DNA of 51,437 nt. It comes from a virus. The position numbers were made by a program, and so were the translations under genes. The notes beneath the pieces are model-generated. The model had not been told where the DNA came from. It saw nothing but the letters and a program-made list of their open reading frames with translations, and made no database searches. Below, one piece after another: positions 1 to 51,437 of this stretch. How positions within the stretch are numbered: the stretch's first letter is position 1; every line of letters begins with the position of its first letter. Location of the stretch: positions 1 to 51,437 of IMG/VR virus record IMGVR_UViG_3300018017_000002. One strand, written 5' to 3'.

Positions 1-123
1 ATTCTCGCATACAAATCTTTCCTGAATAGATTCTTATCAACCATTTCTCTTATATTGCGATTAGTTGCACACACAAACCTACATGAAATCTCTTTTTCAT
101 CTGCTGCACCGACAGGACGAATG
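1..123. repeat. terminal overlap identical to 51315..51437 (circular closure of the assembly)
   Basis: Direct comparison of the first 123 nt with the last 123 nt shows identity; an ORF reads through the join. Confidence 0.95.
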
Positions 124-680
124 TATCTTTTGCCATCAATAGGTTGTAATACATTAAGCAACTTAGCTTGTGTTGACAATGGCAAGTCGCCAATCTCATC
201 AAGAAACATTACTCCATCTTGGGCAGATAGTATTAGTCCTTTCTTACTGCTAGTTGCACCAGTAAATGCACCAGCAGTATGGCCAAACAGTTCTGACTCC
301 ACTAACTCTGCTGGCATAGCCGCGCAATTAATACGAGCAAATGTTCCTTGTCTATCACCTATCATTGCTCTAGCTATTAGCTCTTTACCAGTTCCAGTTT
401 CACCAGTAATAAGAACTTCATCATCAACTTTAGCTAGCTTCATAGCATCAGCTTTCATGGCTAGGGTATCTTCATCTTCGGTTATAAACTTCTTCAACCA
501 CAAAGCTGCTCCTGTAACCATATCTACTAACTGTCCATTCTCAATTCTAAACTTTAACTCAGGAGTAATATCTAGTAACTGTTGTACAGCTTCTACTTGT
601 CCAACAGCTAACAGAGAACGCAGAGTAGATTCTGTTGGAGCTATTCTATCAGGTGTGTTAGGTTTTTGTATTGATATCAT
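1..680 (-). CDS. sigma54-dependent transcriptional activator (bEBP, AAA+ core), 5' two-thirds; continues through the circular junction into 51314..51083 (303 aa when joined)
   Basis: Own reverse translation from ATG at 680: MISIQKPNTPDR...DDEVLITGETGTGKELIARA (Walker A)...ELFGHTAGAFTGATSS (GAFTGA loop)...DGVMFLDEIGDLPL (Walker B)...CATNRNIREMV. The + strand track ORF 55..714 is its shadow. Confidence 0.9.
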   Translation of the reverse strand, partial: MISIQKPNTPDRIAPTESTLRSLLAVGQVEAVQQLLDITPELKFRIENGQLVDMVTGAALWLKKFITEDEDTLAMKADAMKLAKVDDEVLITGETGTGKELIARAMIGDRQGTFARINCAAMPAELVESELFGHTAGAFTGATSSKKGLILSAQDGVMFLDEIGDLPLSTQAKLLNVLQPIDGKRYIRPVGAADEKEISCRFVCATNRNIREMVDKNLFRKDLYAR

Positions 681-8842: not shown

Positions 8843-8858
8843 AGCATTTATCATGCCA
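8843..8858 (-). promoter_or_regulatory. sigma54-type -24/-12 promoter P5
   Basis: Minus strand reads TGGCAT-GATAA-ATGCT followed by ATA; intergenic, pointing into 8587..8790. Confidence 0.65.
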
Positions 8859-8907
8859 CACAAAGATTAGATACTAAATGGATGTTAGAAAGTATATTAG
8901 TCAATGA

Positions 8908-9550: not shown

Positions 9551-9844
9551 TGGTGGAGCAGACGGGAATTGAACCCGTGTCCAATAATTATTTCTCACTA
9601 ATGAATTACAAGTTTATACTAACGGGGCGACTGATTTCAGTCACCATCCACCATTGGTCAGTTAAACTGTGACCAAACCAGCATCCACATAGCCGTAATG
9701 TGCAAGCACGGCATCAGCTTGTGCAACAGACATTGCGTAGTCTTGGTTAGCATTTGTTTTGCCTAGAGAGTTTTAAGTGGCCAACTAGACATCCACTACT
9801 TGCATTAGTTTTGATTTAATTACTGTCGAAACCATTACTGCCCC
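9551..9844 (-). ncRNA. ssrA: tmRNA (transfer-messenger RNA), 294 nt
   Basis: Minus strand: 5' GGGGCAGTAATGGTTTCGACAG...3' GGACACGGGTTCAATTCCCGTCTGCTCCACCA. The 7-bp acceptor stem has G3:U70, the T-arm is ACGGG-TTCAATT-CCCGT, CCA is encoded, and there is an internal tag ORF. Confidence 0.9.
9662..9763 (-). other. tmRNA tag reading frame: (A)GKTNANQDYAMSVAQADAVLAHYGYVDAGLVTV, then TAA
   Basis: Resume codon GGC follows a CTCTAG/pseudoknot-like region. The GKTN start resembles known GKTN-type tags. 33 codons, then TAA. Confidence 0.6.
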
Positions 9845-10055: not shown

Positions 10056-10071
10056 AGCAACTTCTATGCCA
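10056..10071 (-). promoter_or_regulatory. sigma54-type -24/-12 promoter P4 (upstream of the tmRNA)
   Basis: Minus strand reads TGGCAT-AGAAG-TTGCT followed by ATA; about 200 nt upstream of the tmRNA 5' end. Confidence 0.7.
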
Positions 10072-11546: not shown

Positions 11547-11581
11547 TGTTTGTTTGCCCAAAACTTCCTTAGTGGTTCAAT

Positions 11582-11704: not shown

Positions 11705-11720
11705 TGGCACACACTATGCT
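11705..11720 (+). promoter_or_regulatory. sigma54-type -24/-12 promoter P1
   Basis: TGGCAC-ACACT-ATGCT in the divergent intergenic region, pointing right toward the AT-rich block. Confidence 0.65.
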
Positions 11721-12057
11721 TTTCACCCATAGACCTACGCTGTTAAATACTACACACCAGCCCGGACTTTCATGTGACTCGTTGACCGTGCTTAACCACC
11801 GCTACCAGTTACTAGTCTAAACGAGCAAGTGATAGCGTAGCAGTGTGCGTGCCAACTTTGTAAGTAGTTGATAATCAAACGTTACTTAAAACACACCTAG
11901 TAAAGTTATATCGTTACCGTGTTTCTTTTTATACACTACCACACTTAAGTCATTGTATATTAGCACTTTACAAACTGTCTATTTTTGCTCACAGCGGTCA
12001 ATTCCTGTGTCTCAAAAAAGTGTCCTGTACTTACATTAGTATCTCTTATTCTCCCCT

Positions 12058-12467: not shown

Positions 12468-12483
12468 TGGCACAGAAAATGCT
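12468..12483 (+). promoter_or_regulatory. sigma54-type -24/-12 promoter P2 (start of the rightward arm)
   Basis: TGGCAC-AGAAA-ATGCT followed by ATA. The predicted start site falls within a few nt of the ATG at 12496. Confidence 0.7.
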
Positions 12484-13062: not shown

Positions 13063-13063
13063 T

Positions 13064-13510: not shown

Positions 13511-15341
13511 CAACGATTTAGAAATTGAGCAATTACTGCAGAAAGTTAATTCCTCTTCCGAGGAACAGACTACTCACAGAGTTGTTCCTGATGAGAAGTT
13601 AAAGATGGAGCCTTCTACTGCCGTTCCACCTGTTCCTCTATCTAACCCTCTAGCCCCAAGTTCCGAAGTTATTCATACAATAGATACACCTGCTACTTTT
13701 GATGGCTTAGCTATAAAAGACCCTGTTGACTTGCTAGTATTGCTAGACGAGAACATACAGAATGGAACTATTAAGCTTCATCCTTGGCAAATTCAATTTA
13801 TGCTTGACTTTGCTAACCCTAATCACACTAAGGAGCAGCCTTTTCAAGCAGCAGTTCAATCATGTAATAGTTCAGGTAAAGATAAATATGTAATAGCTGC
13901 CTGTGCTGTATGGCTAGCTATGCGGTATCAAGGTGTAGAGATACCAATTACTTCATCTTCTGGTACACAACTTGACAGTCAGACTTGTGCACACATTGAC
14001 CGCCTTTGTAACCGTTCTAATGCTATTTTGGGCCCAATGTGGAAGTTAAACTACCGTTATTATGAGTTCAAGCATATTGGCAGTTTAGGAGAACCTAACC
14101 CATCCACTATTAAGTGTTTTGCAACTGATGAAGCTGGCAAAGCAGAAGGATACCATCCATCTGATGCTGGGAGAAAAATGGCAATATTTACATCAGAAAC
14201 TAAGTCTATACCAGATGATATAACTGATGCACTAGAGAGATGCACTGGATTTACTCATAGAGTGGACGCATCATCACCTGGATTAGCAGCAGGGTACTTT
14301 TATAATACTTGTTCATCTGCTATTCCAAGAGAAGAAATAGATGATATATGCTCTCTTACTTCTGTCCAGACTGTCTTGTATAAGATAACAGCTTACCAGT
14401 GCCCACACATAACTGAATCAGAAATTAATCGTATAGCTTCTAAACTTCCTGGGGGGAAGAATAATCAAGTATTTAAGTCATCAGTCGAAGCCGAATTTGG
14501 TTCTACATCTGAAATGGTAGTTATACCATCCAACTTTGTATGGGGAGCAGTGTCAGACTTACCTAAAAGGAAAGTGCCATTTAATATAACTTGGATTCAA
14601 GAGCCGCATAACACAGCAGGGTTAGACTTATCTGATGGCGGCGCTGAGACTGTATTAGCTATTAGGAATGGTAATAAGCTACTCGGTATTGAGGCATTTA
14701 GACTGGAAGATACCGAAGATACGCTAGACTATCTTACTGAAACTTTATTTCCAAAATGGAATCTCAAGCACAAAGATGCGTTGATATTTGGTGACTATTG
14801 TGGTATGGGTGGCCCAATGCTTAGGGCACTAAAGAGACGTAAATGGTCTAATGTAAGGTTTGTGGATAGCCGTAACAAGGCTTCTGAGCCTAAGACGTAC
14901 GCCAATAGAGGTACAGAATTATTCTTCAATGTAAGACATTTGTTAGCTGGAAAAGAACTTATACTATACTATGATAAGTTGCTTATCGACCAGTTATGCA
15001 CTAGATACTATAAATTGAGAGATGGCGTGATACATCAATTGCTTTCTAAAGTAGAACAGAAGGCTAAGGGATTTCCTTCACCTGACCGTGCTGATGGTGT
15101 TAACCTCTGTTTCTGGAATTATAAATCTACTAGAGTATCAGAAGAAGATGAAGAACCATTTGAGAAAGAGAAAGAAGATGATAAAGATAGGCAAGTAGTA
15201 GTTAATGATTTTGACCAGAAAGTATGGGCAGAAACAGGATGTAAGAAATACAATCCTGAACATGTGGAGGCAGACAAGTCTGATTTACAGGAAGAAATAG
15301 AACAATACAACAAACAAAGAACACAACTAATTGGAGTATAA
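13503..15341 (+). CDS. terminase large subunit (alternative upstream ATG at 13446)
   Basis: 612 aa from the ATG at 13503; P-loop-like ...SCNSSGKDKYVIAA...; acidic nuclease-type segment ...AGLDLSDGGAETVLAI...; lies upstream of the portal-sized gene. Confidence 0.7.
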   Translation: MSDNDLEIEQLLQKVNSSSEEQTTHRVVPDEKLKMEPSTAVPPVPLSNPLAPSSEVIHTIDTPATFDGLAIKDPVDLLVLLDENIQNGTIKLHPWQIQFMLDFANPNHTKEQPFQAAVQSCNSSGKDKYVIAACAVWLAMRYQGVEIPITSSSGTQLDSQTCAHIDRLCNRSNAILGPMWKLNYRYYEFKHIGSLGEPNPSTIKCFATDEAGKAEGYHPSDAGRKMAIFTSETKSIPDDITDALERCTGFTHRVDASSPGLAAGYFYNTCSSAIPREEIDDICSLTSVQTVLYKITAYQCPHITESEINRIASKLPGGKNNQVFKSSVEAEFGSTSEMVVIPSNFVWGAVSDLPKRKVPFNITWIQEPHNTAGLDLSDGGAETVLAIRNGNKLLGIEAFRLEDTEDTLDYLTETLFPKWNLKHKDALIFGDYCGMGGPMLRALKRRKWSNVRFVDSRNKASEPKTYANRGTELFFNVRHLLAGKELILYYDKLLIDQLCTRYYKLRDGVIHQLLSKVEQKAKGFPSPDRADGVNLCFWNYKSTRVSEEDEEPFEKEKEDDKDRQVVVNDFDQKVWAETGCKKYNPEHVEADKSDLQEEIEQYNKQRTQLIGV

Positions 15342-15344
15342 CTT

Positions 15345-15683
15345 ATGCCAGAAACATACGACGTGCAGAAAAGAAGCTTTATTAAGAAACCAGAAACTAA
15401 GTTCTGTATAACTTGTGGTCAACCTTTGCCATCTGATGTTAAACCAATGACTAATGAAATGAACAACTATCTTAATCCTATATCTAACAGAGTAGTCTGT
15501 ATGAATAGTAGTGAGGATATTGTAGAAGTTCAAGGAGTTAAACTGTACAAAGTTACAGGCAATAAAGAAGGTAAGCCAATTTCTAAACACATTCCTGTCG
15601 AACCACAAGCAGAAATTGGAAGTCCAAAAACTGAAAGCAAATCTATGAAGCTTGTTGATGGTAAACTCGTTCCCGCAAACTAA
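15345..15683 (+). CDS. hypothetical protein (112 aa)
   Basis: Track ORF with ATG start. Confidence 0.5.
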   Translation: MPETYDVQKRSFIKKPETKFCITCGQPLPSDVKPMTNEMNNYLNPISNRVVCMNSSEDIVEVQGVKLYKVTGNKEGKPISKHIPVEPQAEIGSPKTESKSMKLVDGKLVPAN

Positions 15684-15705
15684 ACAATCAAACTAAAATT
15701 AAATT

Positions 15706-15930
15706 ATGCCAACTGATAATGATGCTAAGAATGTAACTGACTCACAGAAACAAACTGCTGACCTTGCTAGTGTTAAGCAAGTAGTTCCTCAACATAACGA
15801 TGCTCTTGTTGCACACAATAAAGTTCTTGCTGACGAGCAGGATATTCAAGCTAGGAGAGCCGCTGGTAGCAAGACTGTTAGACAAGATAAGCCTATTGCT
15901 GTTAAGAAAGTTGAGGAAGTTAAGAAGTAA
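15706..15930 (+). CDS. hypothetical protein (74 aa)
   Basis: Track ORF with ATG start. Confidence 0.5.
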   Translation: MPTDNDAKNVTDSQKQTADLASVKQVVPQHNDALVAHNKVLADEQDIQARRAAGSKTVRQDKPIAVKKVEEVKK

Positions 15931-16202
15931 TGTCTAACCCAACTGACCAACCAAACGATGAACCTTCTGGTCGTAATATGACAGATGCTCCAGAGGGAGT
16001 TGTTATTCCAGAGGAGTTTCAACAGGCTGTTCATGGTGTGCTAAAGAAAGCTACTACTAAGCATCATCTTAATCATATCAGGGATAGAGTATATGCCAAG
16101 GAAGATGAGATGAGAAAGGCCGAAGAAGCTAAGAAAAGTAAGGGTAGTAAGAAGGGCGAAGGAGTTAATTTCTCAACTGACACTCCAGGTTCACCTATTT
16201 AA
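15930..16202 (+). CDS. hypothetical protein (90 aa)
   Basis: Track ORF; TAATG overlap with the upstream ORF. Confidence 0.5.
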   Translation: MSNPTDQPNDEPSGRNMTDAPEGVVIPEEFQQAVHGVLKKATTKHHLNHIRDRVYAKEDEMRKAEEAKKSKGSKKGEGVNFSTDTPGSPI

Positions 16203-16214
16203 GGAGACAATCAC

Positions 16215-18137
16215 ATGCCAGACGCCAGTTCAGACAAGTCAATAGACTATATAAATAGTACGGACTATAAAAAGTTGGTTAGTAAGTTGAATAACTTGAA
16301 GGATATTACTTTCGACTTGACTAACAAAACTCTGGCATCTAGGCGACTTCGATATGCAGAAATTGATATTGAAGTTGAAAGAAAAGCTGGGAGGATTGCG
16401 CCGGACGAAATTTACGTACCTCAACACATAATAGACACGAACATTCGCCGTGAGCAATCCTCCTACATTCAATATATAACTCAGTCACCAAGAGCAGTTA
16501 TACTTAAAGATAGAGTTGACCCATCTTTTGACTTGTCTTTGCTTGAAGTTGACTTGACAGAGAAGCTACGTTTTGATGGTTGGCAACTGTCAACCTACGC
16601 TAACATTGATGCATTCCAAGCTAATGGATATGGTATAATGGAAACAGTACAGGACTTAAATAATCCTGGAGATATTGGCAGAGAGCATGTTCAGTATGGC
16701 GATTTTGCATTTATAGCTGATACTCGTGATTTGCAGAAAGCTGAGTTCTTGGGGCGGTCATATTACTTTACTAAGTCTAAGTTACTGGCCCTTACTAGGT
16801 CTGAAAGTGAGAATGATAGATGGGATAAAGAGCAAGTTGATAAGTTACTTAAAATGGAGCCTAATGACGAGCAGGCTCAAATATACTCTGGTACATCTAC
16901 CATAAATAGGTCACTATACAAGATTATTAAAGTAATGTTTAGGGTAAAAGGTGTTGTACATGTAGCATGGTGTGCTCCTGTATTTTGTGATGATTGGTTG
17001 AGAAGTCCTAGAGAATTATATCTAGGTAGAAGAAAACTCAATCAAGAAGCTGCCAAAGCTGCACCAATGATAGCTAAGATTCCACCAATGTTGGAAAAAA
17101 TAGCAATATCATTATTTAAGAAGCGTAATCCATCTTTAACTGATGCACACATACAACAGATAAAGAATGGAGTGCCACCCTCTGATGAAGAATATGAGAC
17201 TCAGTATCCATACTTCATATATCCCTATCTTATCTCAGAAAATGACACAATAGCTAACCTTAAAGGTAGAGTGTTTCTTGACCAAGATACTCAAAATGCT
17301 GCTTCTAGTTTACTGTCTAGCTTATTAACTAAAGCTCGCAGGTCAGCAGGACTATACTTTTCTAAAGATGTTTCTGACCCAAATGATGACTTCTTATTGC
17401 AAAAGAATGTATATTTCAAGCAGGGAGCCTTGCTCAATGGCAAGATTAAAGAATTTAAGTTAGATGCACCTGACGCGCAATTGTTTACTGCATTAACAAC
17501 TCTTGTGTCAGCTAACCAGCAAGAGACCTCACAGGTTAACTTTGCAGAGAATAATAGACAGGCTGATAGTAGAAAGACTGCCACAGCTATTAAGGCAGCC
17601 ACGGCACAACAACAGCAACTAAGCGGGGTTCAGGTTACATTATTTTCTGTTGCAACTAAGAATCAATACACCTACGAGTGTGACATTATCAAGTCAAGAG
17701 TGTTGGCTGGACTCATTAAAGTATCACCCATACTAGCTCAATTGTATGCTCGTTCGTGGACTGTTAAACCATCTGGTGATACAGATGTTATCGAAAAACA
17801 GAAGATGATTGAGACTATGCAACAGGCTTGGCCAGTAGTGCAGAATACTGGTGCTGCTTCTTTATTCTTAACTGACTTGCTAGAGAAAATGTTTCCCGAC
17901 AATTCTGCTAAGTATGTCAAGGCTATACAAGACCAGCAGCAACAGCAGCAAGGACAACAAGCCCAGCAACAACAAGCATTTATGTCTAAAGTTAAACAAC
18001 TAGCTGACCAAGTTGTAAGTCTGTCTAAACATAGAGAAATGTTTTCTGAGACTGGATTAGTAAATGCTTTACCAGCAGTTCAAGCTGCTGCTCAACAAAT
18101 AGAACAAATGCAACAACAAGCAAAAGGACAACAATGA
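16215..18137 (+). CDS. portal protein (by size and position)
   Basis: 640 aa; AAGGAG 8 nt upstream of the ATG; downstream of terminase and upstream of scaffold/capsid; Gln-rich C-terminus. Confidence 0.65.
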   Translation: MPDASSDKSIDYINSTDYKKLVSKLNNLKDITFDLTNKTLASRRLRYAEIDIEVERKAGRIAPDEIYVPQHIIDTNIRREQSSYIQYITQSPRAVILKDRVDPSFDLSLLEVDLTEKLRFDGWQLSTYANIDAFQANGYGIMETVQDLNNPGDIGREHVQYGDFAFIADTRDLQKAEFLGRSYYFTKSKLLALTRSESENDRWDKEQVDKLLKMEPNDEQAQIYSGTSTINRSLYKIIKVMFRVKGVVHVAWCAPVFCDDWLRSPRELYLGRRKLNQEAAKAAPMIAKIPPMLEKIAISLFKKRNPSLTDAHIQQIKNGVPPSDEEYETQYPYFIYPYLISENDTIANLKGRVFLDQDTQNAASSLLSSLLTKARRSAGLYFSKDVSDPNDDFLLQKNVYFKQGALLNGKIKEFKLDAPDAQLFTALTTLVSANQQETSQVNFAENNRQADSRKTATAIKAATAQQQQLSGVQVTLFSVATKNQYTYECDIIKSRVLAGLIKVSPILAQLYARSWTVKPSGDTDVIEKQKMIETMQQAWPVVQNTGAASLFLTDLLEKMFPDNSAKYVKAIQDQQQQQQGQQAQQQQAFMSKVKQLADQVVSLSKHREMFSETGLVNALPAVQAAAQQIEQMQQQAKGQQ

Positions 18138-18376
18138 ATTGTATAGTTATCGAGGGATATCCTGACAGAAAACATATTAAGAAATTTAGACCCTCTAGAT
18201 GGACAAGGTTTGTTAGAGATGGATTTTTTCTATCTAGGTTTGACAGATTTATAAATTGGTATAATCTTCAAAAGAACATTATAGATAGAAAAAGGGAGTA
18301 TAAGATTTTCGTGGCATTAGGGTTAAAGGAGTTTCATCTCCCAGATAGTCTTGGAATAAGAAAGGATTTGCGATGA
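18134..18376 (+). CDS. hypothetical protein (80 aa)
   Basis: Track ORF; ATGA overlap with the portal stop. Confidence 0.45.
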   Translation: MNCIVIEGYPDRKHIKKFRPSRWTRFVRDGFFLSRFDRFINWYNLQKNIIDRKREYKIFVALGLKEFHLPDSLGIRKDLR

Positions 18377-18627
18377 ACATCACACCTGAAAATGCATTAT
18401 CTTATCAACATGCTGAATGGTTAAATCATCCTGTTACAAAACAAATGCTTAGCATACTAGAAAAACAGAAACAGCATATTATTAATTCTGGTTGTTCCTC
18501 TGCTGGTGTACAAGGTATTGACCCTTTTTGGTTTCAGTTACAATTTAGTAATGTAAAAACTATTGATGTTATTAAGAACTGGATTACTAACACAGAACAA
18601 TTTATTCAACAATTAAACAAACAATAA
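18373..18627 (+). CDS. hypothetical protein (84 aa)
   Basis: Track ORF; ATGA overlap. Confidence 0.5.
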   Translation: MNITPENALSYQHAEWLNHPVTKQMLSILEKQKQHIINSGCSSAGVQGIDPFWFQLQFSNVKTIDVIKNWITNTEQFIQQLNKQ

Positions 18628-18633
18628 ACTACT

Positions 18634-19887
18634 ATGGCCAACGAACAACTTAAACCTGCTCCTGATGCTGGTAAAATACCAACACCTGTAATGCCTTCTG
18701 AACCTCCAAAAGAGGTTAAGGAAATGACATTCTCTATCAATCCAGAAGTATTAGGTCAATCTGGTGATTCTACTATTAAGATTGATGGTAAAGATGTTAA
18801 GACTGATGTAGCAGCAATTAAACAAGATGCACCAAAGAAAGATGAACCTGTTCTTAAAGCTCCTAAAGAGGAGATAGCTAAAGTCGAATCCAAAGTTCCG
18901 GCTGACACACCCAAAGATGAAGTTAAGAAGGAAGAACCAAAATCTATTCTTAAGCCACCAACTACAGAGGTTAAGGTTGATACAAGCAAGAAAGAGGAAC
19001 CTAAAGCTACAGACAAGAAACCTGAACTTATTACGCCTGTTAAACCAGATGGGCACGATGCTTTTGATTATTCTTCGTTTAATCCACAAGAACAAATTAA
19101 TCTTAAGAACATGTCTCGTCAGTCTAGGGAGTATACAGCTAACTTAATACGAGAGAACAAACAGTTAGCTGCCCTGAAAGACTCAACATACCTTCAACAC
19201 GAACAAGGATATACTCTTTCACCTGAATATCAAGAGATACAACAGAGAAATTATTTTGCTCAGACAGAGGCCAAATGTTGGGAGAGAGCTTTGCTTAATA
19301 TAAAGGCTGGAAAGAACTTTCAAAATATTGTAGGGTTTGACCAGAAAACAGGTCAACCAATTATGAGTCAAGAACAAGACCCAACTGACCAAGATGAAAT
19401 TCGTATATCTAACAACTTAACTTTGTGTTCTCAGCATATTGGTCAGTACAATAATGCTTTGCAAGTGTATCCTCAACGATTTCGTCAGCAAGTCCAGTCT
19501 GACTTACAAGCTATTGAACAGACACAGAAAGAACGATTTGCTTGGGTAGCCGACCCTAAATTGTTAGAATATTCTATTAATGTAGATGGAGAGGACAAGA
19601 AAGTTAGAGATATTAAAGAAGATTTTAAGAATATTCTTCCTATCTATAGGCGTAATGATATTTTGGCCGATGTAGCTTCTAATTTGTTTGTAGCTATGGT
19701 TATTCAAGGAGCAGAACTTAAAGAGGCCAGAAATGGTCAACAGATAGCTGAAATTAAGAAACAGGAAGCTACAAGAGCTGAGCCTACTTCTGACAATGTA
19801 GATAATGTTGTTAAGAAAACAGAGATTAATGGGAAGACTATACCTTCTATGTTTAGCTTAGAAGGTGCTCCTTTTGAAAGGAGATAG
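18634..19887 (+). CDS. scaffolding-like protein (by position and composition)
   Basis: 417 aa; Lys/Glu/Pro-rich N-terminal half, helical-looking C-terminal half; directly upstream of the capsid gene. Confidence 0.5.
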   Translation: MANEQLKPAPDAGKIPTPVMPSEPPKEVKEMTFSINPEVLGQSGDSTIKIDGKDVKTDVAAIKQDAPKKDEPVLKAPKEEIAKVESKVPADTPKDEVKKEEPKSILKPPTTEVKVDTSKKEEPKATDKKPELITPVKPDGHDAFDYSSFNPQEQINLKNMSRQSREYTANLIRENKQLAALKDSTYLQHEQGYTLSPEYQEIQQRNYFAQTEAKCWERALLNIKAGKNFQNIVGFDQKTGQPIMSQEQDPTDQDEIRISNNLTLCSQHIGQYNNALQVYPQRFRQQVQSDLQAIEQTQKERFAWVADPKLLEYSINVDGEDKKVRDIKEDFKNILPIYRRNDILADVASNLFVAMVIQGAELKEARNGQQIAEIKKQEATRAEPTSDNVDNVVKKTEINGKTIPSMFSLEGAPFERR

Positions 19888-19901: not shown

Positions 19902-19917
19902 TGGCATGAAAATTGCT
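19902..19917 (+). promoter_or_regulatory. sigma54-type -24/-12 promoter P3 (upstream of the major capsid gene)
   Basis: TGGCAT-GAAAA-TTGCT, a full match to the canonical TGGCAC-N5-TTGCW spacing; 150 nt upstream of the ATG at 20069. Confidence 0.8.
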
Positions 19918-19941: not shown

Positions 19942-20000
19942 TTAGCCTCTAATAATCCAAAGGGCATTGGAGTTAGCCTCTAATAGTTGTTGAAGGGCAT
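19942..20000 (+). repeat. two imperfect ~31-33 nt direct repeats in the capsid-gene leader
   Basis: TTAGCCTCTAATA at 19942 and 19973, each followed by AGGGCAT (19961, 19994). The first copy sits in the palindrome TTATTAG-CCT-CTAATAA. Confidence 0.7.
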
Positions 20001-20068
20001 CAACTCGGTTGCAAGTTACGTTTAACTTGTCATTGAGTCAGTCAACAATTTAATTGAAAGGTTAACAG

Positions 20069-21403
20069 ATGCCGTCATATTACAGTCAGCCAGGTTCATT
20101 CGCTAATGCAATCATTCAGCCGAATAACTTGTTCGCTCAACTTCCTTTCTACCTTGTTCATAATGAGGTAGAACAATACTGTAACTGGAATGAATTTGAC
20201 CAAATGTATGGGTCAATTCCGTGGCAGGAAAATATGGGTTCTGTCATGGAAGCAGTTACTCCACAGCGTTCACCTGTAGGTCGTTCGTTCTTCTTTCCTA
20301 ATCCTATTACTACAGCCAGTAATAAGGACATCTATCAGGTTACAGAATCAAATGAACAGGCTGTGTTGTACAAACACAAGTATGGTTCATTTGTGTTTAA
20401 CTTCATTCCTTCATTCCAAGTATTTTGGGATAAGTACATTAAGTTTAACTCTGATGATATTGTTAAACAAATTGCTGTAAGCAATAACCAGTTCATCGAA
20501 ACACAGATGTGGCAGAATGCTACTTATGTGTATATTTGTGGTGTTGGTCTTAGCGCTGGTGCTCCTACTGGTGCGATGAACTCGACTCTTAATGCAGCCA
20601 ACTCTAAGTCTGCTGCATGGCTAGTTGCCCTTGCTCAAGGCACAGCAGCTAATCCTGGCCCACTTCAAAATCTTCGTATTCGTGATGCATACCGTGCAGT
20701 AATGAATCTGCAAGATGATTTGGGTGCTCCTTCATTTAATGGTGCTAAGAACATGCCGAAAGACAATGAGGGTCTTAAGGGCCGTTATGCACTGTTCTGT
20801 GGTTCTGAGGATTACTTTAACTTTACCTTTGACCCTGATGTTAATGGTGTTGTTGGTACACAAGGTATGTTAAAGTCTGTTAATCTTGACTTGCTGTTTA
20901 ATGACTTCAAAGGTTCCTTGTTTGGTACATTGACATGCAAGATTAAGAAGTATCCTATTCGTTATAGTACACAGAACATTGTTGATGGTGCTGGTACTGT
21001 TCTTTGGGCGGCTGGATTTCCTATTGACCCTGAAATCTTCGACCCAACTGATAACAAGTGGAAACCTAATCCTTATTACACATCACTTGTGTCTGCTCCA
21101 TACTCTATTGCCTGGCTACTTGGTGATAACTTCTGTAAGACACTCAAGGTTGGCCCTCCACCTAAAGAGTTTGCTACAAAGAATATGTCAGGTGAGAAAT
21201 TCTACTCACTGCGATGGAATGGTGAGGTTCGTTTAACTGACCAGATTCTTATTACTAACTCTGATGGTTCGATTGAACTTAACGACTATGGTGAAAACTT
21301 GCAGCTTAAGTCTCAACTAACTCATGGATTGATTATGACAGAAAGACGTTTTGCGTTTCCAATTATAATTGCACGTTCTCGTCCAGCAATTACTTCTGTC
21401 TAA
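20069..21403 (+). CDS. major capsid protein (by position, size and expression signals)
   Basis: 444 aa; follows the scaffold-like gene; has its own strong promoter-like site and a long leader. Confidence 0.65.
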   Translation: MPSYYSQPGSFANAIIQPNNLFAQLPFYLVHNEVEQYCNWNEFDQMYGSIPWQENMGSVMEAVTPQRSPVGRSFFFPNPITTASNKDIYQVTESNEQAVLYKHKYGSFVFNFIPSFQVFWDKYIKFNSDDIVKQIAVSNNQFIETQMWQNATYVYICGVGLSAGAPTGAMNSTLNAANSKSAAWLVALAQGTAANPGPLQNLRIRDAYRAVMNLQDDLGAPSFNGAKNMPKDNEGLKGRYALFCGSEDYFNFTFDPDVNGVVGTQGMLKSVNLDLLFNDFKGSLFGTLTCKIKKYPIRYSTQNIVDGAGTVLWAAGFPIDPEIFDPTDNKWKPNPYYTSLVSAPYSIAWLLGDNFCKTLKVGPPPKEFATKNMSGEKFYSLRWNGEVRLTDQILITNSDGSIELNDYGENLQLKSQLTHGLIMTERRFAFPIIIARSRPAITSV

Positions 21404-21994: not shown

Positions 21995-22378
21995 ATGCCA
22001 CTTCGAGTAACAAATGCAGTAGAGAAGAATACATCTTGTGACCCTATAGTGCCAATAGTTGTGGCTGACAGTAAAGCTGTGACTGTATTGCCAGACATTA
22101 GTACATCAAAAGGCGAATGGCTAGGACGTTATATTCAGAATGTAGGAGCTAATGATTGCTATTATGCAATAGGTCATGACTGTGACCAAACTAATTTCAA
22201 TGGTATCTTATCTAAGCCTGCTTCTACTAATTCTGATTCATTTGGTTCTGGACAACAATTTGATGCATCTAACACAGGTCAGAAAATTTCAGTATTTTCT
22301 CGTGGTGGAACAACTATTGCTGTTACATCTATACGTCGAAATGATAATGCTCAAGGACAAGGCAACATACTGAAATAA
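21995..22378 (+). CDS. hypothetical protein (127 aa)
   Basis: Track ORF with ATG start. Confidence 0.55.
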   Translation: MPLRVTNAVEKNTSCDPIVPIVVADSKAVTVLPDISTSKGEWLGRYIQNVGANDCYYAIGHDCDQTNFNGILSKPASTNSDSFGSGQQFDASNTGQKISVFSRGGTTIAVTSIRRNDNAQGQGNILK

Positions 22379-23598
22379 TGAAAAGATTATTTGTAGTCTT
22401 ATTGGTTGGATGTACATTATCTGTATATGGTATTGGTGGATTAGTTAGTCCGACTATAAGTGCTAATGGTGGCGGGATTCCGTCCTCGGTTCAGTTCTCC
22501 GCGCTGGCGACGAATGCGATGAATGGTGTTCCTGGTGGCAATATCGTTACGAACAATCCCTATGCCGGTTTGTTCCTGATGGCGAACGCATTGACCAACC
22601 TGTATTATCCGGGGATTGTGTTCGTTTCCACCAATGGGAATGATACTAATGGTGGTGCTGGTTATTTGACCAATGCCTTTTTGACAGTTACCGGGGCTTG
22701 GACGCACATGGGCAACGGCTACGCCTATCATGTTGGGCCGGGCATGTTTAAGGTTTATACAAACGGAGTTTTCACCCATTGGATACAGGCACCCGCAAAC
22801 ATGGTTCTGGATGGAGAGGGAGCAAACACTGTTCTTTGGGCACCTTATGACCCCAATGCTGCCACCGGAATTGCGGTCACGACGAATCAAACTTTTCAAA
22901 ATCTTACGTGCAGTAATTTGGTGTTCTTCACTCCACTTGCTGCTGCTCTTTCGGGGACGTTAACTTCTGCCACAAACGTAAGCTGGCTGAATCTTTCGAT
23001 TCAAAACTCAAATGTAATTGACACGTGGTATGCCGATGGTGGCGATGCCAGTGGAGGGGGAGACGGATATCATTTTTGCATGGTGTCAAACTGTACAGTT
23101 GTCGGGTACTTTGATTTGGCTATGGGATTCTACAACTCCACCTTTGCATACGATAACATCTTGTTAGCTGCTACAAATAACGCTATAGCATTCGGTGGAA
23201 ACACTGACCCAATTTTCCTCTATGGCGGGAACTTCACTTTTATCGGCGGGACTTATACGCAGCAGCATGCGTCTGGTGGTTCGAGTGGCTACACTTCGAC
23301 GATTCAAGATGACGAAACCGGAATGGATACAAACACATTCATCGGCACAATTCAATGGTACATTCCCGGCACACTGGTAACGAACATGAGCGGAGGGACA
23401 ACTCACAGTGCCGGGGGAGTTTTTCCAGTCAATAGTTTTAGTGGAAATTTTTCTGGCAACGGCTCCGGGCTGACGAACGTCTCGTCGGCGTCTATTTCGG
23501 TTGTGACCAACTCCGCGCCGACGAATGCTGTCACTCCGCTCTTTTGGATTGGAATTACAAACGGCACATCGGTCTATAAAGTGCCGCTCTACCGATGA
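22378..23598 (+). CDS. lipoprotein-signal, beta-helix-like (pectate-lyase-like) protein; candidate tailspike or envelope-acting enzyme
   Basis: MKRLFVVLLVGC (lipobox LVGC); ...VLDGEGANTVLWAPYD...TFQNLTCSNLVF...; C-terminal ...GNFSGNGSGLTNVS... fibre-like motif. Composition switches from AT-rich to GC-rich at about nt 22465 within the ORF. Confidence 0.55.
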   Translation: MKRLFVVLLVGCTLSVYGIGGLVSPTISANGGGIPSSVQFSALATNAMNGVPGGNIVTNNPYAGLFLMANALTNLYYPGIVFVSTNGNDTNGGAGYLTNAFLTVTGAWTHMGNGYAYHVGPGMFKVYTNGVFTHWIQAPANMVLDGEGANTVLWAPYDPNAATGIAVTTNQTFQNLTCSNLVFFTPLAAALSGTLTSATNVSWLNLSIQNSNVIDTWYADGGDASGGGDGYHFCMVSNCTVVGYFDLAMGFYNSTFAYDNILLAATNNAIAFGGNTDPIFLYGGNFTFIGGTYTQQHASGGSSGYTSTIQDDETGMDTNTFIGTIQWYIPGTLVTNMSGGTTHSAGGVFPVNSFSGNFSGNGSGLTNVSSASISVVTNSAPTNAVTPLFWIGITNGTSVYKVPLYR

Positions 23599-24275
23599 AA
23601 GTCTGGCTCCTCATTTTGTTTTTGGTTGCACGTACTGCAACCGCTCAACAGGAGGTTGCAGTCCGGCAGGATACGCTGGCGCACTTCGTTGCAGACACGA
23701 TTTCAAACAACATCACGACGCTCACTCAGACCGTAACGCTGAACGTGACGAACACGGTGACGGTCAACAGCACCAACACCGTTTTGCAGACCAACATCGT
23801 GACGGTGAACCTGACCAACACGACGCTGCTCACCAATGCCGTAACGGTCTATTCGACCAACGCAACAACGACGCTGGCCACAAACTTCTACTCGGTGACG
23901 AACATCACCTACACCACGAACCTGACACTAACGACGAACATTTTCAACGTCACAAACACCGTGCTGCAAACGAACGTCATCAATGGCGGGGTGGCAACAT
24001 CCGGCTGGCCGACGCAGTGGCCGCTGTCGGCCATCACGAACGCAGGGACAGCGGCGGGAACGGCCACAAGTGCGTATGACGCTTCCGGTACTGCCACAAC
24101 AGCCGCGCAGCAGGCAACGAACGGAATCACCTACACGCTGCTCAAAGGCTGGCTTGGGTTCACGCCGGCGACGAACAATCCAAATGCGTGGACAGGAACA
24201 ATAACCAATCTTTACACATCATCACTGTCTAATCATATCCAAGTGTCATCTGGTGTTATCACAAACAAATTATGA
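23595..24275 (+). CDS. signal-peptide protein with Thr/Asn/Val-rich repeats dense in N-x-T
   Basis: MKVWLLILFLVARTATA-QQ; ...NITTLTQTVTLNVTNTVTVNSTNTVLQTNIVTVNLTNTTLLTN...; ATGA overlap with the upstream gene. Confidence 0.55.
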   Translation: MKVWLLILFLVARTATAQQEVAVRQDTLAHFVADTISNNITTLTQTVTLNVTNTVTVNSTNTVLQTNIVTVNLTNTTLLTNAVTVYSTNATTTLATNFYSVTNITYTTNLTLTTNIFNVTNTVLQTNVINGGVATSGWPTQWPLSAITNAGTAAGTATSAYDASGTATTAAQQATNGITYTLLKGWLGFTPATNNPNAWTGTITNLYTSSLSNHIQVSSGVITNKL

Positions 24276-24679
24276 ACCGCCGCGACAAAATAGGTCTGTG
24301 GACTTGTCTCGCGCTGCTCATCGCGTCGGCGATTGTGTTCATGGTCTGCACGGCGAGCGGCCAGACCTTGCCACCGATTCCGCAGGCTACATCCGTCAAC
24401 AAGACGAACCGGACAGTCGTGCATGAGACGAACGGGAGCACGGTCATAACCAGCAACGGTCGCTCGGTCACGAACTGGCCCGCGCCGGTGCCCACGGTGC
24501 AGTCATTTGAAGTGGACGTTACGGTAAAGGGGATTTTCACTGTCACGAACGTTCCGTATCCGTTTTACGTCCGTGTATATTCAAACGATTTGCAATGGTC
24601 AAGCAGCCCGCTGTTTCCGAAAACGAACACGATTAAAATGGGCACGCTGACAACCAGCATGACCTACACGAACGCATGA
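24272..24679 (+). CDS. membrane-anchored/secreted hypothetical protein (135 aa)
   Basis: N-terminal hydrophobic segment LWTCLALLIASAIVFMVC; ATGA overlap. Confidence 0.5.
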   Translation: MNRRDKIGLWTCLALLIASAIVFMVCTASGQTLPPIPQATSVNKTNRTVVHETNGSTVITSNGRSVTNWPAPVPTVQSFEVDVTVKGIFTVTNVPYPFYVRVYSNDLQWSSSPLFPKTNTIKMGTLTTSMTYTNA

Positions 24680-24687
24680 AAGGGTGA

Positions 24688-24924
24688 ATGGACAAGATGG
24701 AAACACTATCTATTACACTAATGGTAGGCGGAGTAGTGCTTGTCGGCACGGCAATAGGAGTGCCAGACCTTGGCTGGATTAGTGCGGCGGCTGTTGCTGT
24801 CATTTGGCTAGACCAAAAGTTCTCCCGAATAGACAAAAAGATAGACCGCTTGCCTTGTGTTCGCGGGAAGCATTGCGGTTTTGGATTGGAAGACCGCGAC
24901 AAAGAAGAATCTTCAACGATATGA
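24688..24924 (+). CDS. holin-like protein (two transmembrane segments, charged C-terminus)
   Basis: LSITLMVGGVVLVGTAIGV and LGWISAAAVAVIWL followed by a Lys/Arg/Asp/Glu-rich tail; immediately upstream of the putative endolysin. Confidence 0.5.
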   Translation: MDKMETLSITLMVGGVVLVGTAIGVPDLGWISAAAVAVIWLDQKFSRIDKKIDRLPCVRGKHCGFGLEDRDKEESSTI

Positions 24925-25385
24925 ACTTCCCCGACGACCTTCTACTCGGCGACGTGCTGCTCTACAACTTGCCGCATGATTTGCCGGATGATGTGATTGA
25001 CGTTTTCACCGACAGCGATGTTGCCCATGCTGAAATTTATTGGGGCAACGGCTTGTCTATTGCTGCCCGCGCTCAGGGCGTTAATGTATATGACTTCCGA
25101 TTGGACGGCCTGATGTATGTGCGCCGCCCTGTTGCCCCGTTTAATCGTTCGCTGGCCGAAGCATGGTTTAACAACGGCATTCGCGGATTGCCCTACGGGT
25201 GGGAAGGACTGCTCACGTTCGCCGGAATTGACCTGCCAAGCAAAGGTCTGATTTGCTCCGTAACTGTTGCGCTGTTGCTTAAGGTCGGTCAATGCCCATG
25301 CTTTGCAGATGATTACCCAATCCACAAAATCTCACCACGGGACTTGAAACTGCCCCGCGAGCTAACCACAATATACACAGCATGA
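24921..25385 (+). CDS. permuted papain-like (NlpC/P60 or YiiX-type) cysteine peptidase; candidate endolysin
   Basis: The ATG at 24921 overlaps the holin stop (ATGA). His-before-Cys order: ...SDVAHAEIYWGNG... then ...GLICSVTVALLL... Confidence 0.45.
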   Translation: MNFPDDLLLGDVLLYNLPHDLPDDVIDVFTDSDVAHAEIYWGNGLSIAARAQGVNVYDFRLDGLMYVRRPVAPFNRSLAEAWFNNGIRGLPYGWEGLLTFAGIDLPSKGLICSVTVALLLKVGQCPCFADDYPIHKISPRDLKLPRELTTIYTA

Positions 25386-25570
25386 AAACACTCATCATCC
25401 TCATCAAACGAAGGCTATGCGGCCTGATTTTCAGCCATAGGCCATTGCATCCTACCGATAGTGGGTGGGTTGTTGGAAGTAAAATGGTTGACCGATTCTG
25501 TAATAGATGTGGTCACATTGTGAGAATGCCAATGGCGGAAGACCCTCGCTATGACAAAACTACCCGCTGA
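25382..25570 (+). CDS. hypothetical protein (62 aa)
   Basis: Track ORF; ATGA overlap; CNRCGH motif. Confidence 0.4.
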   Translation: MKTLIILIKRRLCGLIFSHRPLHPTDSGWVVGSKMVDRFCNRCGHIVRMPMAEDPRYDKTTR

Positions 25571-25600
25571 AACTGAGCGGGTTCAACCCGTAGGAAAATT

Positions 25601-25960: not shown

Positions 25961-25962
25961 AA

Positions 25963-26127
25963 ATGAAGCGACTTATGACAAAAGAAATGTCCGACAAAAT
26001 TAGGGCACAAAGGCTCGCGATGCCCCGTGTAACTCTTGCCGAAGCACAGGCGCAAGCAAAACGTGTGATGGCTGGAAGAATGCGCCACAACCAACAACCA
26101 AACCAACAACACCAAAAAACACCATGA
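25963..26127 (+). CDS. hypothetical small basic protein (54 aa)
   Basis: Below the track cutoff; MKRLMTKEMSDKIRAQRLAMPRV...; its TGA overlaps the next ATG (ATGA). Confidence 0.35.
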   Translation: MKRLMTKEMSDKIRAQRLAMPRVTLAEAQAQAKRVMAGRMRHNQQPNQQHQKTP

Positions 26128-26696: not shown

Positions 26697-26708
26697 TAAT
26701 GTGTTCAC

Positions 26709-51042: not shown

Positions 51043-51058
51043 AGCATTTTCTATGCCA
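51043..51058 (-). promoter_or_regulatory. sigma54-type -24/-12 promoter P6 (25 nt downstream of the bEBP stop)
   Basis: Minus strand reads TGGCAT-AGAAA-ATGCT followed by TATA; points into the replication module. Confidence 0.7.
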
Positions 51059-51082: not shown

Positions 51083-51437
51083 TTAGAAAGTATATCGTAT
51101 CTTTCCTAATACATTATATCTTTTCAATGCTTGTTCAAGTGACCTTACATTCAATGACAAATCAATCTTATCATTCATTATAGCTTCTTCATATTGAGCT
51201 AGAAATTCTTTTGCTTTGACTGGCAACTTAAGTAAATCTCCAAGAGCTATTACTATTGGAACTATATCTCTCTTACGTTCCCTCAATGGTTTAATGTGCA
51301 ATTCAAATGTACTTATTCTCGCATACAAATCTTTCCTGAATAGATTCTTATCAACCATTTCTCTTATATTGCGATTAGTTGCACACACAAACCTACATGA
51401 AATCTCTTTTTCATCTGCTGCACCGACAGGACGAATG
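51083..51437 (-). CDS. sigma54-dependent activator, 3' third (same gene as 1..680; 51315..51437 duplicates 1..123)
   Basis: ...CATNRNIREMVDKNLFRKDLYARISTFELHIKPLRERKRDIVPIV...LNVRSLEQALKRY..., then a stop 14 aa later. No C-terminal HTH. Confidence 0.9.
   Translation of the reverse strand, partial: IRPVGAADEKEISCRFVCATNRNIREMVDKNLFRKDLYARISTFELHIKPLRERKRDIVPIVIALGDLLKLPVKAKEFLAQYEEAIMNDKIDLSLNVRSLEQALKRYNVLGKIRYTF

What the first reader, a model, noticed from the sequence alone, without database searches (positions are those of the whole stretch)
19902..19917. Canonical -24/-12 promoter upstream of the capsid gene, one of six near-identical sites
TGGCAT-GAAAA-TTGCT sits 150 nt upstream of the capsid ATG. 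Five more sites share the exact spacing and core: 11705(+) TGGCAC-ACACT-ATGCT, 12468(+) TGGCAC-AGAAA-ATGCT, 10071(-) TGGCAT-AGAAG-TTGCT, 8858(-) TGGCAT-GATAA-ATGCT and 51058(-) TGGCAT-AGAAA-ATGCT. Most are followed by ATA. The pattern TGGCAY-N5-WTGCT has 9 fixed and 2 two-fold positions. That is roughly 1e-6 per position at equal base frequencies, or about 0.1 expected over both strands of this window. Six were found, all intergenic and all oriented into the downstream genes. Together with the activator gene, this is strong sequence-level evidence for a sigma54 regulon covering late, replication and RNA genes.
Basis: seen in the sequence. Interest (0 to 1): 0.9.

Follow-up and report, generated by a model that had tools for sequence, protein, structure and literature searches.

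The report
Phage promoters for host sigma-54 polymerase
An uncultured ~51-kb phage carries seven sigma-54-type (-24/-12) promoters, one at the head of each apparent transcription unit including the capsid gene, plus its own stripped-down sigma-54 activator ATPase; this layout is conserved across a large family of related viral contigs and I found no published description of it.

Summary
All six TGGCAY-N5-WTGCT sites exist at the stated coordinates, against 0.18 expected by chance. A seventh site lies at 11839-11854(-).

The window is a circular or terminally redundant phage-like genome. A 303-aa sigma-54 activator (bEBP) gene wraps the junction. It has a GAFTGA loop, no C-terminal DNA-binding domain and a novel 65-aa N-terminal domain.

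Comparative evidence is strong:
- All 17 capsid relatives (60-100% identity) keep a -24/-12 site 142-175 nt upstream of the capsid ATG. TGGCA and TGCT are the only invariant upstream columns.
- In 80 viral loci carrying a relative of the bEBP, the motif occurs 170 times at spacer 5 and 5-17 times at any other spacer.
- 84% of sites are intergenic, against 13% of bases. 167 of 187 point into the next ORF.
- 54 of 80 loci have a site within 150 nt after the bEBP stop codon.
- Positions the search left free match the canonical sigma-54 consensus.

Best reading: host sigma-54 polymerase sits on these promoters and the phage bEBP opens them. Not shown: transcription start sites, rpoN dependence, host identity, and how the bEBP is first expressed.

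One sigma-54-like promoter is reported for Pseudomonas phage YuA. I found no report of a phage-encoded bEBP or a genome-wide phage sigma-54 programme.

The parts
19902..19917 (+). Sigma-54-type promoter (TGGCAT-GAAAA-TTGCT) upstream of the major capsid gene. Predicted +1 near 19928.
   Evidence: Highest PWM score, 25.1 bits. Conserved in all 17 capsid relatives.
12468..12483 (+). Sigma-54-type promoter at the head of the rightward packaging and head-assembly operon (ORFs from 12496 to 19887).
   Evidence: 21.6 bits. Equivalent rightward sites in relatives L001, L002, L003, L005, L013 and L017.
11705..11720 (+). Sigma-54-type site facing about 750 nt of non-coding, partly very AT-rich DNA. It is the weakest of the seven.
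   Evidence: 17.1 bits. No ORF or Rfam family downstream. Placed differently in the close relative L001.
11839..11854 (-). It faces leftward ORFs 10953-11561 and 10188-10625 and is convergent with the 11705(+) site.
   Evidence: 19.2 bits. Leftward sites in the same divergent region in relatives L002, L003, L013 and L017.
10056..10071 (-). Sigma-54-type promoter about 200 nt upstream of the phage tmRNA gene.
   Evidence: 20.6 bits. tmRNA.
8843..8858 (-). Sigma-54-type promoter at the head of the long leftward operon. That operon holds a zinc-ribbon ORF, a tRNA-like gene, a helicase, a ligase and small ORFs, and ends with the bEBP gene.
   Evidence: 22.0 bits. Same-strand sites 5-10 kb upstream of the bEBP gene in most relatives. 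Gene content.
51043..51058 (-). Sigma-54-type promoter 25 nt after the bEBP stop codon. It faces the replication module (50650 down to 41384).
   Evidence: 22.6 bits. A same-strand site lies within 150 nt after the bEBP stop in 54 of 80 loci. Module content.
1..680 (-). 5' part of the bEBP (sigma-54 activator) gene, with its ATG at 680-678. The gene continues across the circular junction.
   Evidence: Pfam Sigma54_activat E=1.8e-54. AlphaFold pLDDT 92.9. Foldseek best hits are NtrC4, NtrC1, FleQ, FlrC and PspF.
51083..51437 (-). 3' part of the bEBP gene. Positions 51315-51437 duplicate 1-123. The protein ends about 15 residues after the sensor-II motif NVRSLEQ, so there is no HTH domain.
20069..21403 (+). 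Major capsid protein gene (444 aa).
   Evidence: Foldseek hits against PDB and BFVD are almost exclusively phage major capsid proteins, but the model is of low confidence and TM-scores are low. No Pfam, PHROG or PDB sequence hit.
19956..20004 (+). Two hairpins in the capsid mRNA leader, at 19956-19971 and 19989-20004, each with loop AGGGCA.
   Evidence: 5 of 5 pairs of the second hairpin show compensatory changes; leader folding z = -3.1.
9551..9844 (-). Phage-encoded tmRNA downstream of the 10071(-) promoter.
   Evidence: ARAGORN. Rfam RF00023, 112 bits.
8882..8897 (-). 16-mer ATATACTTTCTAACAT about 23 nt upstream of the -24 element. Identical copies lie at 51080-51095(-) and 12147-12162(+). 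It is the local version of a family-wide TATAAC-N3-4-TAACA upstream element.
   Evidence: TATAAC is 13-fold enriched within 70 nt upstream of the sites.

Best explanation
These are sigma-54 (RpoN)-dependent promoters of a lytic-looking, podovirus-like uncultured phage.

Proposed mechanism:
1. Host core RNA polymerase carrying host sigma-54 binds the -24 GG and -12 GC elements and forms closed complexes that cannot open by themselves.
2. The phage-encoded 303-aa AAA+ activator (bEBP) assembles into a ring and contacts sigma-54 through its GAFTGA loop.
3. ATP hydrolysis by the ring opens the promoters.
4. The activator has no C-terminal DNA-binding domain. It therefore most likely acts from solution, or via its unknown 65-aa N-terminal domain, on every phage -24/-12 site. 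Truncated PspF, Helicobacter FlgR and Chlamydia CtcC work without enhancer binding.

Seven such promoters head every transcription unit I could delineate: two for structural genes (one dedicated to the capsid gene), two for replication and DNA metabolism, one for a tmRNA, one for leftward small ORFs, and one for a non-coding AT-rich region.

The bEBP gene is the last gene of one sigma-54-headed operon and is followed 25 nt later by the next promoter. This implies positive feedback.

Shown here: the motifs, their conservation, spacing, position and orientation, and the bEBP fold and motifs.

Inferred: binding by sigma-54, activation by the phage bEBP, timing, and the source of the first bEBP molecules.
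For: - Six exact sites against 0.18 expected. Seven sites at 17 bits or more with a matrix built from relatives only, then a gap down to 11.5 bits.
- All 17 capsid relatives carry TGGCAY-N5-NTGCT 142-175 nt upstream of the capsid ATG. Spacers vary. TGGCA, TGCT and the start codon are the only invariant columns.
- In 80 bEBP-bearing viral loci (1.25 Mb) there are 170 hits at spacer 5 in 77 loci, against 5-17 hits at spacers 1-4 and 6-10.
- 84% of 191 sites are intergenic, against 13% of bases. 167 are co-directional with the next ORF and 20 are opposite. The median distance to the next ATG is 128 nt.
- 54 of 80 loci have a same-strand site within 150 nt after the bEBP stop, down to 36-40% bEBP identity.
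- Free positions reproduce the known consensus YTGGCACGR-N3-TTGCW: Y 0.76, G7 0.64, R8 0.79, T16 0.95. The consensus TGGCAC-N5-7-TTGCT is as quoted in PMC12316311.
- bEBP: Pfam Sigma54_activat E=1.8e-54. PDB sequence hits to NtrC4, FleQ, NtrC1 and PspF at 1e-45 to 1e-34. Model pLDDT 92.9 with Foldseek hits to the same proteins.
- Walker A, Walker B, GAFTGA and NVRSLEQ are conserved across 32 homologues, and all end right after the AAA+ domain.
- All 11 near-complete genomes that carry the capsid also carry the bEBP (contig names).
- No RpoN domain, other sigma factor or RNA polymerase was detected in the phage ORFs that were scanned.
Against: - There is no experimental evidence: no start-site, expression or rpoN data.
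- The host is unknown, so presence of rpoN in the host is assumed. The only genome hit is a 4.6-kb contig binned with a Terracidiphilus MAG.
- If every unit needs the bEBP and the bEBP gene has no separate promoter, the start of the cascade is unexplained. The gene is translationally coupled to two upstream ORFs. Scans for sigma-70-type and Bacteroidota-type promoters showed no clear enrichment.
- The 11705(+) site has no identifiable product downstream.
- The function of the bEBP N-terminal domain is unknown.
Confidence: 0.8

Rival explanations
1. The motif is the recognition site of a phage-specific factor that only resembles the -24/-12 consensus. Candidates are a phage-encoded sigma factor, a phage RNA polymerase or a dimeric DNA-binding regulator. 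The bEBP would then serve another purpose.
For: GCAT-N5-ATGC within several sites is partly palindromic. Most phage proteins have no detectable homologues, so an unrecognised factor cannot be excluded. This includes the 2155-aa virion protein.
Against: Conservation is asymmetric (TGG on the left only) and strongly strand-oriented, 167 to 20. Free positions match the sigma-54 consensus specifically. The motif co-occurs with a GAFTGA-bearing bEBP and sits directly after its gene. No sigma, RpoN or DxDxD polymerase signature was found.
Confidence: 0.05
2. The sites do bind sigma-54 holoenzyme, but the phage bEBP mainly reprogrammes host sigma-54 regulons as host takeover. The phage sites would be activated by host bEBPs or serve as polymerase-parking or sequestration sites rather than as the main phage promoters.
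For: A DNA-binding-domain-less bEBP would not discriminate between phage and host sigma-54 promoters. Non-productive sigma-54 binding sites are common in E. coli (title and abstract of PMC4591121, listed).
Against: Sites head operons and are conserved at the same syntenic positions, after the bEBP gene and before the capsid gene. No enrichment of alternative promoter types was detected for these operons. Host bEBPs normally need their own enhancers, which were not seen.
Confidence: 0.1
3. The repeated motif is a chance or compositional artefact, or a footprint of a repeated mobile sequence.
For: None beyond the short length of the motif.
Against: None of 100 shuffles reached 6 hits. Enrichment is specific to spacer 5. 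Flanks and spacers differ between sites and between relatives, so these are not copies of one repeat.
Confidence: 0.01

Closest known systems
Bacterial sigma-54 promoters with NtrC/PspF-family enhancer-binding proteins (bEBPs)
   Same: The -24 GG and -12 GC elements have the canonical spacing and extended consensus. The activator has the Sigma54_activat AAA+ fold, Walker A and B, the GAFTGA loop and sensor II.
   Different: Both promoters and activator are encoded by a virus and control the virus's own genes. The activator has no C-terminal HTH and none of the usual N-terminal sensory domains. Instead it has a 65-aa domain with no detectable homologue. No enhancer at -80 to -150 was recognised. 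Some promoters instead carry TATAAC-N3-4-TAACA at about -20 to -60 from the -24 element.
bEBPs that work without DNA binding: PspF(1-275) in vitro, Helicobacter/Campylobacter FlgR, Chlamydia CtcC (from my own knowledge, not tested here)
   Same: A minimal AAA+ activator lacking the DNA-binding domain, expected to activate from solution.
   Different: Those are cellular proteins controlled by phosphorylation or a partner such as PspA. The phage protein has its own N-terminal domain and would be controlled mainly by when it is made.
Pseudomonas phage YuA (M6-like)
   Same: [quoted passage not shown] One sigma-54-like promoter region (P015) is supported by a promoter trap and by ONT-cappable-seq (PMC10914365, citing Ceyssens et al. 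2008).
   Different: One sigma-54-like promoter among many other promoter types. tblastn of this bEBP against 50,697 GenBank phage records gave no Pseudomonas phage hit. Here seven sites head every unit I could delineate, and the activator is phage-encoded.
T4 late transcription (gp55, gp33 and the gp45 sliding clamp)
   Same: A phage uses an unconventional, activator-dependent initiation mode, with an enhancer-like activator, to drive structural genes (review PMC2988020, listed).
   Different: T4 brings its own sigma-70-family fragment proteins and uses the replication clamp. There is no AAA+ remodelling of sigma-54.

Membership tests
Sigma-54 (RpoN)-dependent promoter | Conserved GG and GC doublets exactly 10 bp apart (TGGCAC-N5-TTGCW) | tested here: met
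   Six exact sites plus one near-exact site. In 80 related loci there are 170 hits at spacer 5 against 5-17 at other spacers.
Sigma-54 (RpoN)-dependent promoter | Extended consensus at flanking positions (Y before TGG, G/R after TGGCAC, T before TGC, W after it) | tested here: met
   Frequency matrix of 198 non-identical sites: Y 0.76, G7 0.64, R8 0.79, T12 0.46 with A 0.30, T16 0.95.
Sigma-54 (RpoN)-dependent promoter | Located upstream of genes and oriented towards them | tested here: met
   84% intergenic against 13% of bases. 167 co-directional, 20 opposite. Syntenic conservation.
Sigma-54 (RpoN)-dependent promoter | Transcription starts about 12 nt downstream of the GC doublet | not testable with these tools
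   No RNA data available.
Sigma-54 (RpoN)-dependent promoter | Activity requires rpoN and an ATP-hydrolysing bEBP, and the host encodes sigma-54 | not testable with these tools
   Host unknown. No RpoN domain was found in the phage ORFs scanned, so sigma-54 would have to come from the host.
Bacterial enhancer-binding protein (bEBP, AAA+ sigma-54 activator) | Sigma54_activat AAA+ domain above Pfam's curated threshold | tested here: met
   PF00158, 184 bits against a cut-off of 20.2. PDB hits at 1e-45. Foldseek E = 2e-22.
Bacterial enhancer-binding protein (bEBP, AAA+ sigma-54 activator) | GAFTGA sigma-54-contacting loop, Walker A and B, sensor II arginine | tested here: met
   GHTAGAFTGA, GETGTGKE, FLDEIG and NVRSLEQ. 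G137, T140, K99, D161, E162 and R284 are invariant in 32 homologues.
Bacterial enhancer-binding protein (bEBP, AAA+ sigma-54 activator) | C-terminal helix-turn-helix domain that binds upstream enhancer sites | tested here: not met
   The protein ends about 15 residues after sensor II. No HTH_8 domain in it or in the 120 listed homologues. This feature is typical but not universal for the family.
Bacterial enhancer-binding protein (bEBP, AAA+ sigma-54 activator) | N-terminal sensory or regulatory domain (receiver, GAF, PAS, V4R and similar) | tested here: not met
   Residues 1-65 form two helices, a beta-hairpin and a helix. They have no Pfam or PDB relative.
Bacterial enhancer-binding protein (bEBP, AAA+ sigma-54 activator) | Enhancer (UAS) repeats 80-150 bp upstream of target promoters | tested here: inconclusive
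   No common distal repeat was seen. A proximal TATAAC(-N3-4-TAACA) element is 13-fold enriched within 70 nt upstream, but only at 30 of 158 sites.
YuA-type phage use of host sigma-54 | Phage promoter recognised by host sigma-54 without a phage-encoded bEBP | tested here: not met
   This phage encodes its own bEBP. No bEBP hit in Pseudomonas phages. YuA data from PMC10914365.

The most novel reading that the evidence does not exclude
A widespread lineage of uncultured ~50-kb phages runs essentially its whole transcription programme on the host's enhancer-dependent sigma-54 polymerase. At least 211 IMG/VR contigs carry a relative of the bEBP. The switch is a self-encoded, minimal bEBP without a DNA-binding domain. 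That would be the first virus-encoded bEBP and the first virus whose gene expression is globally sigma-54-dependent.
Probability: 0.55. Interest if true: 0.85.

Novelty: new variant of a known kind. Interest (0 to 1): 0.75.

Why it matters
Known phage transcription strategies are host sigma-70, phage-encoded sigma-70-family factors, and phage RNA polymerases. A phage that supplies only a small ATPase and uses the host's sigma-54 holoenzyme would add a further strategy.

Sigma-54 promoters are completely silent without the activator. That would give a viral programme with essentially no leak. It would also tie infection success to the presence and level of host RpoN.

The minimal 303-aa activator and its compact promoters could be useful as an orthogonal, tightly off expression switch. 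The many diverged homologues give a natural series for studying enhancer-independent activation.

It also raises a concrete puzzle. How is the first activator made if its own operon is sigma-54-dependent?

Tried and rejected
- **Known phage relatives.** Megablast of 12 kb and tblastn of the capsid against 50,697 GenBank phage records found nothing. tblastn of the bEBP found only host-type bEBPs on bacterial or contaminant records.
- **Host.** The GTDB scan with the capsid profile gave one 4.6-kb contig in a Terracidiphilus MAG, which is too weak to name a host. Shine-Dalgarno use is low, 15 of 46 genes with a loose motif. Bacteroidota-type promoters are not enriched, 3 against 2.1 expected.
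- **Early promoters.** The sigma-70 consensus scan was not clearly above shuffles, 38 against 32.6. An 8-mer survey of intergenic regions turned up CAAAAGAAA, which on inspection lies in or next to coding sequence and is not a regulatory motif.
- **RNA product downstream of 11705(+).** No Rfam hit and no convincing ORF.
- **tmRNA in relatives.** None found in 53 loci. The equivalent region of the closest relative is not covered by the loci held.
- **2155-aa protein as a virion RNA polymerase.** No Pfam hit and no DxDxD motif.
- **N-terminal domain of the bEBP.** No PDB or Pfam relative.
- **Capsid structure.** The model is poor (pLDDT 52.7), so the fold matches are supportive, not decisive.
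- **Ceyssens 2008 (YuA).** The paper is not held in the library, so it is cited only through PMC10914365.
- **Literature.** Six searches found no paper on phage-encoded bEBPs.

Full report
**1. The observation**

Shuffles give a mean of 0.18, and none of 100 reached six.

The site at 19902 ends 151 nt before the ATG at 20069. All six lie between ORFs.

Relaxing the -14 position reveals a seventh site, 11839-11854(-) TGGCACGCACACTGCT. A weight matrix built from relatives only, excluding the near-identical genome, scores the seven sites at 17.1-25.1 bits. The capsid site scores highest. The next hits score 11.5 and 11.1 bits, which is background level.

**2. What the window is**

The first and last 123 bases are identical, so this is a circular or terminally redundant assembly of 51,314 bp. 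It is close to IMG/VR contig UViG_3300037843_000033, at 85-99.9% identity in blocks with some replaced modules. It has no relative among GenBank phages.

Genes on the plus strand from 12.5 to 41.2 kb include:
- large ORFs in the usual packaging and head order;
- the 444-aa protein after the 19902 site, whose fold matches are almost exclusively phage major capsid proteins, although the model is of low confidence;
- a weak SU10-adaptor match;
- a 2155-aa protein with no recognisable domain.

The minus strand from about 10 kb, around the junction, to 41.4 kb carries:
- a helicase, a ligase-like ORF and a DUF3987 protein;
- a DNA polymerase split into two ORFs, a Sak4-like annealing protein and an exonuclease-like protein;
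- a tmRNA at 9551-9844.

**3. The activator**

A 303-aa ORF runs on the minus strand from 680 across the junction to 51083.
- It matches Pfam Sigma54_activat at 1.8e-54.
- It matches NtrC4, FleQ, NtrC1 and PspF in the PDB at 1e-45 to 1e-34.
- It folds confidently (pLDDT 92.9) onto the same structures.
- Walker A (GETGTGKE), the GAFTGA loop, Walker B (FLDEIG) and sensor II (NVRSLEQ) are present and conserved in 32 homologues.

The protein and all its homologues stop right after the AAA+ domain, so there is no HTH domain. Residues 1-65 form a small helix/hairpin domain with no relative in Pfam or the PDB.

No RpoN-like domain was detected in the phage ORFs that were scanned, so sigma-54 would have to be the host's.

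**4. Comparative tests**

*(a) Capsid promoter.* All 17 IMG/VR relatives of the capsid (60-100% identity) have TGGCAY-N5-NTGCT 142-175 nt upstream of the capsid ATG, with nine different spacers. In the alignment of 13 upstream regions, mean column identity is 50%. The only invariant upstream columns are TGGCA, TGCT and two isolated A positions in the leader.

*(b) Spacing.* A profile of the activator finds 211 viral contigs. In the 80 loci fetched (1.25 Mb), TGGCAY-Nx-NTGCW occurs 170 times at x=5, in 77 loci. It occurs 5-17 times at every other spacer from 1 to 10.

*(c) Position.* 84% of 191 non-redundant sites are intergenic, against 13% of bases. 167 point at the next ORF and 20 point away. 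The median distance to the next ATG is 128 nt.

*(d) Synteny.* In 54 of 80 loci a same-strand site lies within 150 nt after the activator's stop codon, and about 16 more lie within 150-700 nt. This includes clades with only 36-40% activator identity. Most loci also have same-strand sites 5-10 kb upstream of the activator, like 8858(-) and 10071(-) here.

*(e) Consensus.* At positions the search left free, the sites show Y before TGG, G then R after TGGCAY, T before TGC and T after it. This is the published sigma-54 consensus (my knowledge of Barrios et al. 1999; TGGCAC-N5-7-TTGCT as quoted in PMC12316311).

*(f) Co-occurrence.* Every near-complete genome with this capsid also has the activator (contig names).

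**5. How it most likely works**

Host sigma-54 holoenzyme occupies the seven sites as closed complexes. The phage ATPase opens them using ATP. Because it lacks a DNA-binding domain, it probably acts from solution on all sites.

The seven sites head every transcription unit I could delineate:

| Site | Downstream unit |
|---|---|
| 12468(+) | packaging and head genes |
| 19902(+) | capsid and tail genes |
| 51058(-) | replication module |
| 8858(-) | DNA-metabolism genes, ending in the activator |
| 10071(-) | tmRNA and two small ORFs |
| 11854(-) | two leftward ORFs |
| 11705(+) | about 750 nt of non-coding, AT-rich DNA (possibly an origin region; speculative) |

The separate promoter directly before the capsid gene, inside an operon that is already transcribed, fits the need for a very abundant product.

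The activator gene overlaps two upstream small ORFs by ATGA and has no promoter of its own that I could recognise. This implies positive feedback and leaves the first round of expression unexplained.

One lead: the promoters flanking the activator's operon carry an extra upstream element. Here it is ATATACTTTCTAACAT, three exact copies. In relatives it is TATAAC-N3-4-TAACA. TATAAC is 13-fold enriched within 70 nt upstream of sites, 38 observed against 2.8 expected, at 30 of 158 sites. It could be a housekeeping-sigma promoter, a site for the activator's N-terminal domain, or an operator. I could not distinguish these.

**6. Rivals**

- A phage-specific factor that mimics the consensus is unlikely. 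Conservation is asymmetric and strand-oriented, the match is to sigma-54 specifically, and the motif is linked to a GAFTGA activator.
- A host-takeover role for the activator is compatible with the main model and does not exclude it.
- Chance is excluded.

**7. Comparison with what is known**

The parts are standard sigma-54/bEBP machinery. The setting is not.

Pseudomonas phage YuA is reported to depend on sigma-70 and sigma-54, with one sigma-54-like promoter (PMC10914365, citing Ceyssens 2008). No Pseudomonas phage matched this activator.

Six full-text searches found no report of a phage-encoded bEBP or of a phage-wide sigma-54 programme. Subscription literature is not covered, so prior description cannot be excluded.

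PHROGs holds a family of 'unknown function' (phrog_7998) that matches the activator at 1e-36. Related proteins therefore exist in catalogued phages or prophages without having been interpreted.

**8. Verdict**

What remains unproven is biochemical and temporal. This is a new variant of a known kind: a virus-borne, minimal, enhancer-independent sigma-54 activation system that appears to control every transcription unit of the genome. Interest 0.75.

Noticed in passing
window 19956-19971 and 19989-20004 (+): The capsid mRNA leader holds two tandem hairpins, each with a 5-bp stem and the loop AGGGCA. Relatives keep the loop and change the stems by compensatory substitutions (5 of 5 pairs for the second hairpin). 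These are the only AGGGCA hairpins in the window. The leader folds better than shuffles (z = -3.1). This is probably a cis-regulatory RNA element with an unknown partner.
   Followed up: partly
window 8882-8897(-), 51080-51095(-), 12147-12162(+); relatives L019, L024-L028, L034, L038-L040, L047: The 16-mer ATATACTTTCTAACAT occurs three times exactly. Two copies sit about 22 nt upstream of sigma-54 sites. The third is in the AT-rich non-coding region with no adjacent site. Relatives have TATAAC-N3-4-TAACA, often in two or three copies, at the corresponding promoters. TATAAC is 13-fold enriched upstream of sites. Its function is unknown.
   Followed up: partly
window 9551-9844 (-): Phage-encoded tmRNA (Rfam 112 bits) with an unusually long predicted tag, ANQDYAMSVAQADAVLAHYGYVDAGLVTV. 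It lies about 200 nt downstream of a sigma-54 site. No tmRNA was detected in 53 related loci.
   Followed up: partly
window 9898-9917 and 13642-13661: A perfect 20-nt inverted repeat on the DNA (I17). As a result, the same 20-mer CTAACCCTCTAGCCCCAAGT is present both in the tmRNA leader transcript and inside the 631-aa ORF presumed to be the terminase. This is far beyond chance for 51 kb and is unexplained.
   Followed up: no
window 11705-11854: The 11705(+) and 11854(-) sites are convergent, with predicted starts about 100 nt apart, so their transcripts would overlap antisense. The whole 11669-12030 segment is replaced by different sequence in the close relative L001. There the rightward site sits directly before the AT-rich region and no leftward site is seen.
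   Followed up: partly
window 10911-10934 and 11642-11665: A 24-nt inverted repeat (92% complementary) flanks ORF 10953-11561(-) (I10). It could be a pair of operators or the ends of a small inserted module.
   Followed up: no
window 12040-12230: An extremely AT-rich stretch of short TATATTATATT-type repeats between the divergent promoters. It is a candidate replication origin into which the 11705(+) promoter would fire. This is speculative.
   Followed up: no
window about 4000-8000 and 22000-26700: Two islands of 45-52% G+C in a 36-40% genome. They largely coincide with segments that do not align to the closest relative. The second island encodes signal-peptide and T/N-repeat proteins and a 190-aa protein ending in ...LVWRF, typical of outer-membrane beta-barrels. 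This suggests swapped host-interaction modules and a diderm host.
   Followed up: no
window 5442-5747 (-) and 10188-10625 (-): Two low-complexity ORFs. One is almost pure Gly-Tyr/Gly-Ser/Gly-Asp repeats, a 101-aa ORF lying within a 12-18-nt periodic DNA repeat at 5400-5723. The other has an Ala-Tyr/Ala-Asn/Ala-Val repeat tail and a weak Imm5-like match.
   Followed up: no
window 43232-45952 (-): The family-A-like DNA polymerase is split into two adjacent ORFs of 520 and 351 aa, separated by about 100 nt.
   Followed up: no
window 6285-6372 (-): Rfam calls a tRNA (36 bits, above the gathering score) that ARAGORN does not report. At 88 nt it may be a long-arm or degenerate tRNA.
   Followed up: no
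whole window: Few genes have a Shine-Dalgarno-like sequence, 15 of 46 even with a loose definition, and upstream regions are A-rich. Most structural proteins have no Pfam or PHROG relative, so the lineage is very poorly charted.
   Followed up: partly
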